From the NCBI RefSeq assembly GCF_009914755.1, contig NC_060940.1: a stretch of 64,000 nucleotides of DNA; one strand, given 5' to 3'. The DNA comes from the human T2T-CHM13v2.0 reference genome, Homo sapiens. The position numbers and the translations under genes are program-made. Below, piece after piece: positions 10,818-14,652 of this stretch (within the stretch, counting starts at the first letter, position 1; each line of letters opens with the position of its first letter). The notes beneath the pieces were generated by a model. It saw nothing but the letters and a program-made list of their open reading frames with translations, was not told the origin of the DNA and searched no databases.

Positions 10818-11735
10818 ATGGAGAATGTGTTTGAAAAATTGACAGAAGTAGACTTCAGAAAGTGGGTAATAACAAACTCCTCTGAGCTAAATGAGCATGT
10901 TCTAACCCAATGCAAGGAAGCTAAGAACCTTGATAACAGGTTACAGGAACTGCCAACTAGAATAACCAGTTTAGAGAAGAATATAAATGACCTGATGGAG
11001 CTGAAAAACACAGCACGAGAACTTCGTGAAGCATACACAAGTATCGATAGCCGAATTGATCAAGCAGAAGAAAAAATATCAGAGATTGAAGATCAACTTA
11101 ATGAAATAAAGCGCGAAGAGAAGATTAGAGAAGAAAGAATGAAAAGGAATGAACAAAGCCTCCAAGAAATACGGGACTATGTGAAAAGACCAAACCTACA
11201 TTTGACTGGTGTACCTGAAAGTGACTGGGAGAATGGAACCAATTTGGAAAACACAATTCAGGATATTATCCAGGAGAACTTCCCCAACATAGCAAGACAG
11301 GCCAACATTCAAATTCAGAAAATTCGGAGAACATCACAAAGACACTTCTTGAGAAGAGCAAGACACATAATCATCAGATTCACCAAGGTTGAAATGAAGG
11401 AAAAAATGTTAAGGGCAGCCAGAAAGAAAGGTCAGGTTACCCACAAAGGGAAGTCCATTAGGCTATCAGCAGATTTCTCTGCAGAGACCCTACAAGCCAG
11501 AAGAGAGTGGGGACCAATATTCAACATTCTTAAAGAAAAGAATTTTCAACCCAAAATTTCATATCCAGCCAAACTAAGCTTCATAAGTGAAGAAGAAATA
11601 ACATCCTTTACAGACAAGCAAACGCTAAGGGATTTTGTCACCACTAGGCCTGCCTTACAAGAGCTCCTGAAGGAAGCAGTGAATATGGAAAGGAAAAACC
11701 AGTACCAGCCACTGCAAAAACATACCAAAATGTAA
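10818..11735 (+). CDS. LINE-1 ORF1p, open for 305 aa from the second in-frame Met
   Basis: Coiled coil, RRM and CTD recognisable (YVKRPNL, ARREWG, YPAKLS). The ancestral ATG appears mutated to AAG at 10716-10718, in frame and with no stop before 10818. Confidence 0.85.
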   Translation: MENVFEKLTEVDFRKWVITNSSELNEHVLTQCKEAKNLDNRLQELPTRITSLEKNINDLMELKNTARELREAYTSIDSRIDQAEEKISEIEDQLNEIKREEKIREERMKRNEQSLQEIRDYVKRPNLHLTGVPESDWENGTNLENTIQDIIQENFPNIARQANIQIQKIRRTSQRHFLRRARHIIIRFTKVEMKEKMLRAARKKGQVTHKGKSIRLSADFSAETLQARREWGPIFNILKEKNFQPKISYPAKLSFISEEEITSFTDKQTLRDFVTTRPALQELLKEAVNMERKNQYQPLQKHTKM

Positions 11736-11798
11736 AGGCCATTGACACTATGAAGAAACCGCATCAACTAATGTGCAAAATAACCACCTAGCATCGTA

Positions 11799-13260
11799 AT
11801 GACAGGATCAAATTCACACATAACAATATTAACCTTAAATGTAAATGGGCTAAATGCCCCCATCAAAAGACACAGACTGGCAAATTGGATAGAGTCAAGA
11901 CCCATCAGTGTGCTATATTCAGGAGACCCATCTCACGTGCAAAGACACACGCAGGCTCAAAATAAAGGGATGGAGGAATATTTACCAAGCAAATGGAAAG
12001 CAAAAAGAAAGTAGGGGTTGCAATCCCAGTCTCTGATAAAACAGACTTTAAACAAAGATAAAAAAAAAAAAAAGACAAAGAAGGGCCTTACATATGGTAA
12101 AGGCATCAATGCAACAAGAAGAGCTAAGTATCCTAAATATATATGCACCCAATACAGGAGCACCCAGATTCATAAGGCAAGTTCTTAGAGACCTACAAAG
12201 AAACTTAGACTCCCACACAATAATAGTGGGAGACTTTAACACTCCACTGTCAATATTAGACAGATCAACAAGACAGAAAGTTAACAAGGATATTCAGGAC
12301 TTGAACTCAGCTCTGAACCAAGTGAACCTGATAGATGTCTACAGAACTCTCCACCCCAAATCAACAGAATATGCATTCTTCTCAGCACCACATTGCACTT
12401 ATTCTAAAATTGACCACATAACTGGAAATAAAACACTCCTCAGCAAATGCAAAAGAACAGAAATCATAACAAACAGTCTCTCAGGCCACAGTGCAATCAA
12501 ATTAGAACTCAGAATTAAGAAACTCACTAAAAACTGCACAATTACATGCAAACTGAACAATCTGCTCCTGAATGACTACTGGGTAAATAACGAAATTAAG
12601 GCAGGAATAAGTAAGTTCTTTGAAACCAATGAGAACAAAGACAAAATGTACCAGAATATCTGGGACACAGGTAAAGCAGTGTTTAGAAGGAAATTTATAG
12701 CACAAAGTGCCCACATGAGAAAGCGGGAAAGATCTAAAATCGACACCCTAACATCACATTTAAAAGAACTAGAGAAGCAAGAGCAAACAAATTCAAAAGC
12801 TAGCAGAAGACAAGGAACAACTAAGATCAGAGCAGAACTGAAGGAGATAGAGATACGAAAGACCCCTCAAAAAATCAATGAATCCAGGAGGTGTTTTTTT
12901 GAAAAGATTAACAAAATAGACCGCTAGCCAGACTAACAAAGAAAAGACAGAAGAATCAAATAGACACAATAAGAAATGATAAAGGGGATATCACCACTGA
13001 TCCCACAGAAATACAAACTACCATCACATAATACTATATACACCTCTATGCAAATAAACTAGAAAATCCAGAAGAAATGGATAAATTCCTGGACACATAC
13101 ACCCTTCCAAGACTAAACCAGGAAGAAGTTGAATCCCTGAATAGACCAATAACAAGTTCTGAAATTGAGGCAGTAATGAATAGGCTACCAACCAAAAAAA
13201 GCCCAGCACCAGATGGATTCACAGCTGTATTCTATCAGAGATACAAAGAGGAGCTGGTAC
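11799..13260 (+). pseudogene. L1 ORF2 5' part (endonuclease), frameshifted
   Basis: MTGSNSHITILTLNVNGLN start; GDFNTPLS and SKIDH motifs; frameshifts near 11890 and 12060-12095; stop at 12927. Confidence 0.92.
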
Positions 13261-13300
13261 AAAAACAAGAAATGGGCAAAGGATTCCCTATTTAATAAAT
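13259..13300 (+). other. 42-bp templated insertion copied from 15923-15964
   Basis: 'acaaaaacaagaaatgggcaaaggattccctatttaataaat' is identical at both positions. Confidence 0.92.
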
Positions 13301-13302
13301 TG

Positions 13303-14652
13303 TTCTGGATTTTCTACTTTATTTTTGTAGAGGTGTATATAGTATTATGTGATGGTAGTTTGTATTTCTGTGGGATCAGTGGTGATATCCCCTTTATCAT
13401 TTCTTATTGTGTCTATTTGATTCTTCTGTCTTTTCTTTGTTAGTCTGGCTAGCGGTCTATTTTGTTAATCTTTTCAAAAAAACACCTCCTGGATTCATTG
13501 ATTTTTTGAGGGGTCTTTCGTATCTGTATCGCCTTCAGTTCTGCTCTGATCTTAGTTGTTTCTTGTCTTCTGCTAGCTTTTGAATTTGTTTGCTCTTGCT
13601 TCTCTAGTTCTTTTAAATGTGATGTTAGGGTGTCGATTTTAGATCTTTCCCTCTTTCTCATGTGGGCACTTTGTGCTATAAATTTCCTTCTAAACACTGC
13701 TTTACCTGTGTCCCAGATATTCTGGTACATTTTGTCTTTGTTCTCATTGGTTTCAAAGAACTTACTTATTCCTGCCTTAATTTCGTTATTTACCCAGTAG
13801 TCATTCAGGAGCAGATTGTTCAGTTTGCATGTAATTGTGCAGTTTTTAGTGAGTTTCTTAATTCTGAGTTCTAATTTGATTGCACTGTGGCCTGAGAGAC
13901 TGTTATGATTTCTGTTCTTTTGCATTTGCTGAGGAGTGTTTTATTTCCAGTTATGTGGTCAATTTTAGAATAAGTTCAATGTGGTGCTGAGAAGAATGTA
14001 TATTCTGTTGATTTGGGGTGGAGAGTTCTGTAGACATCTGTTAGGTTCACTTGGTTCAGAGCTGAGTTCAAGTCCTGAATATCCTTGTTAACTTTCTGTC
14101 TTGTTGATCTGTCTAATATTGACAGTGGAGTGTTAAAGTCTCCCACTATTATTGTGTGGGAGTCTAAGTCTCTTGGTAAGTCTCTAAGAACTTGCCTTAT
14201 GAATCTGGGTGCTCCTGTATTGGGTGCATATATATTTAGGATACTTAGCTCTTCTTGTTGCATTGATGCCTTTACCATTATATAATGCTCTTCTTTGTCT
14301 TTTTTTTATCTTTGTTTAAAGTCTGTTTTATCAGAGACTGGGATTGCAACCTCTGCTTTTTTTTTTTTTTTTTTTGCTTTCCATTTGCTTGGTAAATATT
14401 CCTCCATCCCTTTATTTTGAGCCTGCGTGTGTCTTTGCACGTGAGATGGGTCTCCTGAATATAGCACACGGATAGGTCTTGACTCTATCCAATTTGCCAG
14501 TCTGTGTCTTTTGATGGGGGCATTTAGCCCATTTACATTTAAGGTTCATATTGTTATGTGTGAATTTGATCCTGTCATTACGATGCTAGGTGGTTATTTG
14601 GCACATTAGTTGATGCGGTTTCTTCATAGTGTCAATGGTCTTTACATTTTGG
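13303..14652 (-). repeat. Inverted duplicate of 11725-13073 (ORF1 end, spacer, ORF2 endonuclease)
   Basis: Reverse-complement match along the whole arm. The ORF track gives identical 70-aa translations at 12502..12714(-) and 13662..13874(+). Confidence 0.97.

What the first reader, a model, noticed from the sequence alone, without database searches (positions are those of the whole stretch)
11725..14652. Full-length L1 carrying a 1.35-kb self-palindrome of its endonuclease region
Seen: 11725-13073 recurs as a reverse complement at 13303-14652 (about 98% identical by eye) around a 229-bp spacer, and the L1 continues in sense on both sides inside a single TSD pair. Known: twin priming gives 5'-truncated inversions without kilobase duplications, and long near-perfect inverted repeats with short spacers are unstable and depleted in genomes. 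Both arms share the same inactivating lesions (short deletions near 11890 and 12920). Inference: this is a post-insertion DNA-level template switch (FoSTeS/MMBIR-like), or the arms were later homogenised. It may be a cruciform, fragile or spacer-inversion site.
Basis: partly seen in the sequence, partly recalled or inferred. Interest (0 to 1): 0.8.

Follow-up and report, generated by a model that had tools for sequence, protein, structure and literature searches.

The report
Old L1 with self-copied inverted patch
A decayed full-length L1 retrotransposon on human chromosome 16 had a small piece of its second gene replaced, millions of years after it inserted, by a 1.4-kb patch copied backwards from itself, which is a large but ordinary example of DNA repair or replication switching templates.

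Summary
Window 11725-13073 recurs reverse-complemented at 13303-14652: 28 mismatches in 1339 aligned bases (97.9%) and 4-5 indels, around 229 bases. It lies in one L1 (9385-17195) with a single 12-nt target-site duplication.

The "spacer" is not foreign. Bases 13074-13258 are colinear L1. Bases 13259-13300 are an exact 42-nt sense copy of 15923-15964 in the same element. So about 26 nt of ORF2 were replaced by a 1392-nt patch from two donors inside the same L1. The junctions show 2, 1 and 0 nt of microhomology and no poly-A or duplication.

The arms share 45 substitutions and three deletions against 23 other copies, and differ from each other by 8 (arm A) and 17 (arm B) private changes. The nearest other copies genome-wide are about 9-10% away. 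The copy was therefore made late, at roughly 12-25% of the element's residence time.

Best reading: one post-insertion DNA-level event, either fold-back or template-switch synthesis at a break or a fork. It is a large, inverted, two-donor case of the known repair-mediated or inverted-duplication class. Interest is low to moderate.

The parts
9373..9384 (+). Left target-site duplication, ATTTAGATAGAT
   Evidence: Exact 12-nt match to 17196-17207. It lies directly before the point where full-length relatives start to align, 9385-9387.
9385..17195 (+). One near-full-length, decayed L1PA-type element. It is 7811 nt long, or 6419 nt without the patch. The ORF1 frame is open for 344 codons and ORF2 is broken.
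   Evidence: Colinear with full-length relatives L009, L011, L015 and L022 apart from the patch. ORFs are listed. A short A-run and the TSD mark the 3' end.
11725..13073 (+). Arm A, the original. It runs from the end of ORF1 through the inter-ORF spacer and the endonuclease region of ORF2. It was the template of the inverted copy.
   Evidence: Colinear with upstream and downstream L1. It has 8 private substitutions, 7 transitions and 1 transversion.
13074..13258 (+). Inner spacer, part 1. This is L1 ORF2 continuing colinearly from arm A. It is not duplicated.
   Evidence: Relatives align without a break up to 13258-13262.
13259..13300 (+). Inner spacer, part 2. This is a 42-nt templated piece, an exact sense copy of 15923-15964. 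Its first two bases, AC, are shared with colinear L1, giving 2 nt of microhomology at junction 1.
   Evidence: Direct repeat D1, 42 of 42 identical. It carries a C where 19 of 19 relatives have G or A. The 42-mer occurs 5 times in the 3.1-Gb genome, 2 of them here.
13301..13302 (+). TG at junction 2. Either it is filler, or it is the first two bases of the inverted copy with one mismatch.
   Evidence: Junction view. T13300 is shared by both templates. Positions 13290-13300 pair with 13076-13086 at 7 of 11 places.
13303..14652 (-). Arm B, the inverted copy of 13073 back to 11725.
   Evidence: It has 17 private substitutions (7 transitions, 10 transversions), an A-run 10 nt longer than in arm A, and a 4-nt deletion.
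14653..17195 (+). L1 ORF2 resumes in sense about 26 nt beyond where it stopped at 13260, and runs on to the 3' UTR and A-tail. Junction 3 at 14652/14653 has no microhomology and possibly one extra A.
   Evidence: Eight colinear relatives show a 26-nt stretch between the two flanks that is absent here.
15923..15964 (+). Local donor of the 42-nt piece, 2664 nt downstream of the copy.
17196..17207 (+). Right target-site duplication.

Best explanation
A single L1PA-type element inserted by ordinary target-primed reverse transcription and then decayed for most of its residence time.

Much later, one DNA-level event hit ORF2 at about window 13260. This was either a double-strand break with long resection or a stalled fork. 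The 3' end at ...GGTAC took these steps:
1. It primed on the exposed strand 2.66 kb downstream through a 2-nt match and copied 42 nt.
2. It let go and folded back onto its own strand (or the sister or lagging template) at 13073-13076, through a 1-nt match set in 7 of 11 imperfect pairing.
3. It copied 1350 nt leftwards to 11725, which made the inverted arm.
4. It was joined without homology to the other side of the break, which had lost about 26 nt.

The product is a 1.35-kb near-palindrome with a 229-nt loop. In the four-point template-switch notation it is a '3-2-1-4' event with one extra hop. In the terms of Pace et al. it is a chimeric, two-donor, proximal repair-mediated duplication.

Shown by the calls: the structure, the junctions, that both donors are local, and that the event came late. 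Inferred: the order of steps, break versus fork, and which polymerase acted. No function is implied. The locus is intergenic.
For: Structure: three junctions and two local donors.

A post-insertion date:
- Arm-to-arm distance is 28 of 1339, against 8.6-14% to 23 other copies.
- The best other copies scored genome-wide are 89-90% identical.
- There are 45 shared-derived substitutions, against 8 and 17 private ones.
- Shared deletions of 2, 4 and 3 nt are present, two of them frameshifts.
- In the tree the stem is 0.056, the tips are 0.008 and 0.019, and the median tip of relatives is 0.057.
- The 42-nt piece is identical to its donor and carries its rare C.

Not a retrotransposition. There is no poly-A or TSD at the patch ends, the patch lacks the L1 3' end, and the element has one TSD pair.

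Not duplicated elsewhere. Only the locus itself spans junctions 1-2 and junction 3 among the 40 best candidates scored in each search.

Not an assembly fold-back. Both arms carry their own derived changes.

The class is known:
- Proximal repair-mediated duplications have microhomology of 2-9 nt, deletions, fillers and two-donor chimeras (PMC2671141, sections read).
- There are 277 polymorphic inverted duplications in 1,019 humans, mostly with 1-15 bp of microhomology (PMC12350158, passages).
- The '3-2-1-4' switch type makes inverted repeats (PMC5453318, passages).
Against: - No orthologous empty site or read-level data could be examined, so the pre-event sequence and the exact breakpoints are inferred from other L1 copies.
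- The 42-mer is not unique. Three other L1 copies in the genome hold it exactly, so a local donor is the most economical reading but is not proven.
- The 1350-nt copy is more than twice the longest proximal duplication in Pace et al. (619 bp). The 26-nt deletion exceeds their 1-15 nt range.
- Microhomology at two of the three junctions is 0-1 nt, which does not by itself argue for a replicative route over end joining.
- Differences between the arms are unevenly spread, at 9, 11, 1 and 7 per quarter. Some arm-to-arm conversion may have occurred, and if so the date is a minimum.
Confidence: 0.85

Rival explanations
1. Two steps. A fold-back at the broken end first made a palindrome with little or no spacer. 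A later centre break then removed the inner ~185 nt of arm B and filled the gap with the 42-nt templated piece. This is stabilising 'palindrome revision'.
For: The final structure is compatible with it. The 42-nt piece and the TG sit exactly at the inner edge of arm B. Palindromes with short or no spacers are the unstable ones (PMC7999016, passages). The revision pathway itself is recalled and comes from no call.
Against: It needs two rare events at one site. It also needs a strictly one-sided loss that leaves arm A and its continuation intact up to 13258. Nothing in the sequence demands it.
Confidence: 0.08
2. RNA-templated repair. The 1350-nt inverted arm was copied from the locus's own sense L1 transcript by a polymerase with reverse-transcriptase activity, acting at a chromosomal break.
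For: A sense RNA has the same sequence as the top strand, so the product would be identical. Arm B has more private changes than arm A (17 against 8) and more transversions (10 of 17 against 1 of 8, Fisher p = 0.04). This would fit a low-fidelity copying step.
Against: The 42-nt sense piece cannot be copied from sense RNA and needs a DNA template, so a DNA-only route is simpler. The excess is weak: binomial p = 0.11 for counts, and p = 0.15 for arm B against the spectrum of the shared changes. There is no evidence that this decayed copy is transcribed.
Confidence: 0.04
3. The structure arose during retrotransposition, through twin priming or reverse-transcriptase template jumping, or it is a second, independent L1 fragment inserted in antisense and later homogenised by gene conversion.
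For: L1 copies with inverted blocks are common. Among the 20 relatives first fetched, L021 has a twin-priming-like 5' inversion and L015 holds an inverted 548-bp L1 piece.
Against: - The element is full length with sense L1 on both sides, and the inverted block is a duplicate rather than the 5' end.
- To make sense-strand L1 from 11725 to 13073, the cDNA would need an antisense DNA template that did not yet exist (inference).
- The arms share frameshifts and 45 derived changes and are 2.1% apart, against 9-14% for independent copies.
- L015's inverted piece is only 85.8% identical to its partner, which is what an old or independent piece looks like.
- The 42-nt piece has 0 differences from its donor, although it is too short for conversion.
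- There is no poly-A or TSD at the patch.
Confidence: 0.02
4. An assembly artefact, such as a chimeric fold-back read built into the assembly.
For: Fold-back chimeras exist in long-read data (recalled). No reads could be inspected here.
Against: An artefactual fold-back gives identical arms. Here the arms differ at 28 sites and 4-5 indels, and each arm carries its own derived states relative to 23 outgroup copies. The inner junction also holds a separate 42-nt templated piece.
Confidence: 0.01

Closest known systems
Repair-mediated duplications by capture of proximal DNA (Pace, Sen, Batzer and Feschotte 2009, PMC2671141; abstract and two Results sections read)
   Same: The acceptor interrupts a transposable element at nearly continuous element positions. 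The donors lie on the same chromosome within 5 kb, here 0.2-1.5 kb and 2.66 kb away. There is no poly-A or TSD. Microhomology and a deletion mark the breakpoints. The acceptor is a chimera of two nearby donors; they report 20 chimeras, 5 of them with both donors close.
   Different: The length is 1350 nt, against a mean of 162 and a maximum of 619 bp for proximal events. The deletion is 26 nt, against 1-15. Donor and acceptor lie in the same element and the main piece is inverted, so a near-palindrome results. Their pipeline discarded inserts that are themselves transposon sequence or occur many times in the genome, so this kind of case could not be found by it.
Polymorphic inverted duplications in human long-read data (Schloissnig et al. 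2025, PMC12350158; passages)
   Same: This is an insertion that is a reverse-complement copy of adjacent sequence. Breakpoints have little or no homology. The authors propose a replicative origin.
   Different: Their median length is 284 bp, so this one is about five times longer. It appears to be old and probably fixed rather than polymorphic, though that is not tested. It also carries an extra templated hop.
Short template-switch mutations, four-point model (Loytynoja and Goldman 2017, PMC5453318; passages)
   Same: The switch-point order 3-2-1-4 (11725, 13073, 13260, about 13287) is the type that creates an inverted repeat.
   Different: Their events are tens of bases long, and they explicitly do not model multiple rounds of switching. 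Here the copied fragment is 1350 nt and a second donor is involved.
FoSTeS/MMBIR complex rearrangements and fold-back inversions (model papers recalled; PMC4352052 passages and PMC10164571 abstract were seen)
   Same: There are serial template switches with microhomology, an inverted copy, and possibly error-prone synthesis. Fold-back of inverted sequences occurs in single-stranded DNA.
   Different: Those events usually span tens of kb to Mb or make dicentric chromosomes. This one is a 1.4-kb interstitial patch that rejoined its own chromosome.
Twin priming of L1 (Ostertag and Kazazian 2001; recalled, and cited in passages of PMC12350158)
   Same: An L1 with an inverted internal block inside one TSD pair.
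   Different: Twin priming gives a 5'-truncated element whose 5' part is inverted, and it is made at insertion. Here the element is full length, the block is an extra copy, and it was made long after insertion.

Membership tests
Proximal repair-mediated duplication / templated insertion at a break | The insert interrupts a host sequence whose two flanks are otherwise continuous. Pace et al. accept flanks within +/-30 element positions. | tested here: met
   Flanks 13260 and 14653 are 26 nt apart in eight colinear relatives.
Proximal repair-mediated duplication / templated insertion at a break | A parental copy lies nearby on the same chromosome, within 5 kb. | tested here: met
   Arm A ends 229 nt from arm B. 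The 42-nt donor lies 2664 nt downstream.
Proximal repair-mediated duplication / templated insertion at a break | No poly-A tail and no target-site duplication at the insert. Microhomology, filler or deletion is present at the breakpoints. | tested here: met
   Junction views show AC (2 nt), T (1 nt, or a TG filler) and 0 nt, with a 26-nt deletion and no A/T tract.
Proximal repair-mediated duplication / templated insertion at a break | The parental copy is the only other copy in the genome. This is a pipeline criterion of Pace et al. | tested here: not met
   The insert is L1 sequence with thousands of relatives. The 42-mer occurs 5 times. Parentage rests instead on 97.9% identity against at most 90% for other copies. 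This is a detection criterion rather than a mechanistic one.
Twin-primed L1 insertion | A 5'-truncated element whose 5' segment is inverted and abuts the TSD. | tested here: not met
   Sense 5' UTR, ORF1 and ORF2 precede the inverted block. Relatives align from 9385 next to the TSD.
Twin-primed L1 insertion | The inversion is made at insertion, so any duplicated parts are as old as the element. | tested here: not met
   The arms are 2.1% apart, against 8.6-14% to other copies. The stem is 0.056 and the tips 0.008 and 0.019.
Independent nested L1 insertion | Its own 3' end, poly-A and TSD, and its own mutation history. | tested here: not met
   The patch spans only the ORF1-end to ORF2 endonuclease region. 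It has no poly-A or TSD. It shares 45 substitutions and 3 deletions with the host.
Structure-prone palindrome / fragile inverted repeat | Long, highly similar arms with a very short spacer. Measured breakage, or polymorphism of the centre. | tested here: inconclusive
   The arms are long and 97.9% alike. The central 981 nt fold as one hairpin at -449.6 kcal/mol, against -93.2 for shuffles. However, the spacer is 229 nt. The review passage seen says that a 52-bp spacer already removed frequent fork stalling at Alu repeats in eukaryotic cells. No population or breakage data were available.

The most novel reading that the evidence does not exclude
The inverted arm keeps the error trail of the polymerase that made it. 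Arm B has about twice the private substitutions of arm A (17 against 8). They are mostly transversions (10 of 17, against 1 of 8 in arm A and 169 of 462 in control copies). Arm B also has extra indels. If ape orthologues showed that these changes were all present from the start, the locus would be a germline fossil of kilobase-long, low-fidelity fold-back or RNA-templated repair synthesis. It would give an error rate and spectrum for that synthesis in vivo, at about 7 per kb.
Probability: 0.2. Interest if true: 0.5.

Novelty: new member of a known kind. Interest (0 to 1): 0.28.

Why it matters
- It is a clean, fully resolved example of a repair or replication event that used two templates, both within 3 kb and inside one repeat element. 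It made a 1.35-kb near-palindrome that then persisted.
- It shows that surveys of repair-mediated duplication that discard repeat-derived inserts miss self-templated events inside transposons. Such events can also be much longer than the published proximal maximum of 619 bp.
- The host L1 gives many outgroup copies, so each arm's changes can be polarised. That makes the locus usable as a small natural test of whether the copying synthesis was mutagenic, and of how long a kilobase inverted repeat with a 229-nt spacer survives in the germline.
- No gene or annotated element is affected.

Tried and rejected
- **L1 subfamily ages.** The paper with the subfamily ages and rate (Khan et al. 2006) is not held under its DOI or the PMC id given in another paper's reference list. 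The subfamily was therefore not assigned, and absolute dates rest on a recalled rate and on two ages quoted in PMC3525338.
- **Palindrome catalogue.** GAP-Seq (PMC4057610) was checked for L1 or chr16 palindromes and holds only cancer-cell junctions.
- **The rare C in the 42-nt piece.** I tested whether it marks a private mutation. The exact 42-mer is also in three other L1 copies. Two of them (L041, L043) are 11-12.5% from the arms, so they are not close kin. The third (L042) gave no long match to the arm. The C is rare but not unique.
- **The same kind of structure in relatives.** None of the 34 related L1 loci holds an internal inverted repeat of 95% identity or more. The nearest case, L015, is 85.8%.
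- **Error-prone synthesis.** The statistics are only marginal: Fisher p = 0.04 for arm A against arm B spectra, 0.15 for arm B against shared changes, and binomial 0.11 for counts. With the first 10 relatives the values were 0.043, 0.06-0.09 and 0.05.
- **A conversion tract in the third quarter of the arms.** This is also marginal. The counts are 9, 11, 1 and 7. My own chi-square by hand gives about p = 0.05, and no tool computed it.
- **Not available.** No ape, GRCh38, pangenome or read data can be reached with these tools.
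Full report
**Observation**

- The repeat finder reports four colinear inverted blocks that join 11725-13086 to 13290-14652.
- blastn joins them into one alignment, 11725-13076 against 14652-13300. It is 96.5% identical over 1363 columns, with 27 mismatches and 4 gap openings.
- A MAFFT alignment of 11725-13073 with the reverse complement of 13303-14652 has 28 mismatches in 1339 aligned positions.
- AT skew is +0.35 to +0.45 in the sense L1, turns to -0.29 to -0.41 over 13250-14750, and then returns.
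- The window has no N.
- As single-stranded DNA, the central 981 nt fold into one hairpin of -449.6 kcal/mol. Twenty shuffles give -93.2 +/- 4.9.

**The host element**

I aligned 9000-17600 to 20 related L1 loci fetched from the same genome.
- Full-length relatives (L009, L011, L015, L022) start to match at 9385-9387, and the matches end at 17184-17202.
- A 12-nt direct repeat, ATTTAGATAGAT, lies at 9373-9384 and at 17196-17207, just outside these limits and after a short A-run.
- There is therefore one L1 with one target-site duplication. It measures 7811 nt as it stands.
- ORF1 is open for 344 codons, and ORF2 is in pieces.

**What the spacer really is**

The 229 bases between the arms are not foreign.
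- Bases 13074-13258 continue ORF2 colinearly from arm A. Relatives align without a break up to 13258-13262.
- Bases 13259-13300 are an exact 42-nt direct copy of 15923-15964, further 3' in the same ORF2.
- The inverted arm follows from 13303.
- After 14652, sense ORF2 resumes. Eight colinear relatives show that 26 nt present between the two flanks in normal copies are missing here.

So the event replaced about 26 nt with a 1392-nt patch made of two pieces, both templated within this element. The junctions are as follows.
- Junction 1 shares AC between the acceptor and the 42-nt donor.
- Junction 2 shares one T. It is followed by TG, which is either filler or the first two copied bases with a mismatch. 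The last 11 nt of the 42-nt piece can pair with 13076-13086 at 7 of 11 places.
- Junction 3 has no microhomology and perhaps one extra A.
- Neither end of the patch has an A or T tract or a duplication.

**Parentage**

The 42-nt piece carries a C where 19 of 19 relatives that cover the site have G (18) or A (1). The exact 42-mer occurs five times in the 3.1-Gb genome: the patch, the local donor, and three other L1 copies. Two of those three are 11-12.5% from the arms, and the third gave no long match to arm A. The C is therefore rare but not unique, and the donor 2.66 kb away is the economical source.

For the long piece:
- A genome-wide search with arm A scored 40 of 12,675 first-look candidates. 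The best copies other than the locus itself are 89-90% identical.
- That list did not show arm B.
- Only the locus itself spans junctions 1-2 or junction 3 among the 40 candidates scored in each search.

**When it happened**

I compared the arms with 23 other copies. Ten were chosen for covering the arm among the first 20 loci. Eleven were the best genome-wide hits. Two were holders of the 42-mer.
- Arm A is 8.6-13.6% away from them and arm B 8.9-14.0%. The arms are 2.1% apart.
- I polarised each difference by the state held by at least 70% of the 23 copies. This gives 8 changes private to arm A, 17 private to arm B, and 3 undecided.
- Another 45 substitutions are shared by both arms against at least 80% of the copies.
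- Both arms share three deletions. A 2-nt deletion after 11890 shifts the frame and is also present in L011 and L024. A 4-nt deletion after 12915 shifts the frame and runs into a stop. A 3-nt deletion follows 12938.
- In a FastTree tree the two arms form a clade with support 1.0, a stem of 0.056 and tips of 0.008 and 0.019. The relatives' median tip is 0.057. The 10-copy tree gave 0.066, 0.008 and 0.020.

The copy was therefore made after roughly 75-88% of the element's residence time had passed.

The 42-nt piece gives a check that does not depend on conversion. It is too short to be kept identical by gene conversion, yet it differs from its donor at 0 of 42 sites. An event as old as the insertion would predict about 4 differences (42 x about 10%). 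This is inference.

Absolute dates are soft. A neutral rate near 1e-9 per site per year (recalled, not from a call) gives about 6-13 Myr. Scaling by family ages of about 18 Ma for L1PA4 and about 40 Ma for L1PA8 (PMC3525338, passages), with the subfamily not assigned here, gives about 4-10 Myr. Either way the event is old enough that fixation in humans is likely. Whether chimpanzee or gorilla share it is open.

**Mechanism**

One break or stalled fork in ORF2 explains everything. With long resection, the left 3' tail exposes the top strand back to at least 11725. The right side exposes the bottom strand out to at least 15964. The proposed steps are:
1. The 3' end first pairs 2.66 kb away on the right-hand single strand and copies 42 nt.
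2. It dissociates and snaps back on its own strand at 13073-13076.
3. It copies 1350 nt.
4. It dissociates again and is joined to the trimmed right end.

A fork-based switch to the sister or lagging template gives the same product. Neither the order of steps nor break versus fork can be told from the sequence.

A two-step history cannot be excluded, but it needs two rare events and a one-sided loss. In that history a spacer-less palindrome would later be revised at its centre.

A reverse-transcription origin is very unlikely. The cDNA would need an antisense DNA template of a region not yet copied, and the arms would be as old as the element. L015 shows what an old or independent inverted L1 piece looks like: 548 bp at 85.8%.

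An assembly fold-back would give identical arms, whereas each arm here has its own derived changes.

**Known class**

- Pace et al. (PMC2671141; abstract and the two Results sections on identification and breakpoints read) found 824 proximal repair-mediated duplications inside human transposons. The mean length is 162 bp and the maximum 619 bp. The donor lies within 5 kb. Microhomology is 2-9 nt, deletions 1-15 nt and fillers 1-68 nt. There are 20 two-donor chimeras.
- Their pipeline removed inserts that are transposon sequence or that occur more than once elsewhere, so it could not see this case. The word 'inverted' does not occur in their text, and one opposite-orientation example is mentioned.
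- Schloissnig et al. (PMC12350158, passages) report 277 inverted duplications outside mobile-element insertions in 1,019 people. The median is 284 bp, most have 1-15 bp of microhomology, and the authors read them as replicative. They also note that mobile-element insertions with internal rearrangements may reflect variants arising after integration.
- Loytynoja and Goldman (PMC5453318, passages) define the '3-2-1-4' switch order that creates an inverted repeat. Here that order is 11725, 13073, 13260 and about 13287.

The present case is thus a long, inverted, two-donor member of a described kind. Three full-text searches were run: L1 with inverted duplication and template switching, twin priming with inverted duplication and post-insertion, and long inverted repeats with spacer and cruciform. 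Their listings turned up no description of this locus or of self-templated kilobase patches inside single L1 copies. That shows only that none was found in the held library.

**Stability**

- The review passages seen say that risk rises with arm length and identity and falls with spacer length. They also say that a 52-bp spacer already removed frequent fork stalling at inverted Alus in eukaryotic cells (PMC7999016).
- In long single-stranded DNA, spacing matters little, and only more than 25% divergence suppresses fold-back (PMC10164571, abstract).
- With a 229-nt spacer, and with private substitutions built up in both arms, this repeat has evidently been tolerated for a long time.
- In this assembly the spacer has the orientation in which the model makes it, colinear with arm A.

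**Weak leads**

- Arm B has more private substitutions than arm A (17 against 8, binomial p = 0.11).
- Arm B is also richer in transversions: 10 of 17, against 1 of 8 in arm A (Fisher p = 0.04). It is not clearly different from the 45 shared changes (16 transversions, p = 0.15), nor from 462 private changes in ten control copies (169 transversions, p = 0.06-0.09).
- Replicative rearrangement is said to be error-prone (PMC4352052, passages), so this could be the trace of the copying polymerase. The numbers do not establish it.
- The third quarter of the arms has 1 difference, against 9, 11 and 7 in the others, while its shared-derived count is normal at 14. This may be a conversion tract or chance.

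**Verdict**

The structure is an ordinary kind of event in an unusually large and well-resolved form, in an intergenic L1, with no sign of function.

Noticed in passing
L015:4759-5293 and 6070-6617 (G000:C13:55979265-55986265): A full-length relative carries an inverted 548-bp piece of L1 3' sequence in place of part of ORF2. It is only 85.8% identical to its sense partner. This is an old or independent piece and makes a useful contrast to the window's 97.9% arms.
   Followed up: partly
L021 (G000:C8:134986790-134993790), about 2505-4158: An inverted block matching window 10865-11474 directly abuts a sense block matching window 12236-13260. This layout is what twin priming would give.
   Followed up: no
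window 11890 (and 14484-14486 in arm B); L011, L024: The 2-nt frameshifting deletion shared by both arms is also present in 2 of 10 relatives. This is either parallel loss in an A-rich run or a small sub-lineage.
   Followed up: no
G000:C2:189813294-189813335, C6:70088147-70088188, C13:33716018-33716059: Three other L1 copies hold the exact 42-mer of the templated piece. The two that cover the arm are not close relatives of this element, at 11-12.5% distance.
   Followed up: yes
window 12399-12735 and 13641-13977: This quarter of the arms has a single arm-to-arm substitution and one 4-nt deletion. The other quarters have 9, 11 and 7 substitutions, and the shared-derived count here is normal. 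It may be an arm-to-arm conversion tract.
   Followed up: partly
window 14366-14375 against 12001: An A-run inside ORF2 is 10 nt longer in arm B than in arm A and in 9 of 10 relatives. The change is either slippage during or after the copy.
   Followed up: no
window 9000-9262: An Alu-like repeat lies just upstream of the L1. It matches at least a dozen other places in the window at 74-80%.
   Followed up: no
L042:1908-2271 and 3235-3601; L025:3338-3588 and 6751-6999: Two related loci hold inverted repeats of 367 and 251 bp at about 91% identity. These may be Alu pairs, but they were not identified.
   Followed up: no
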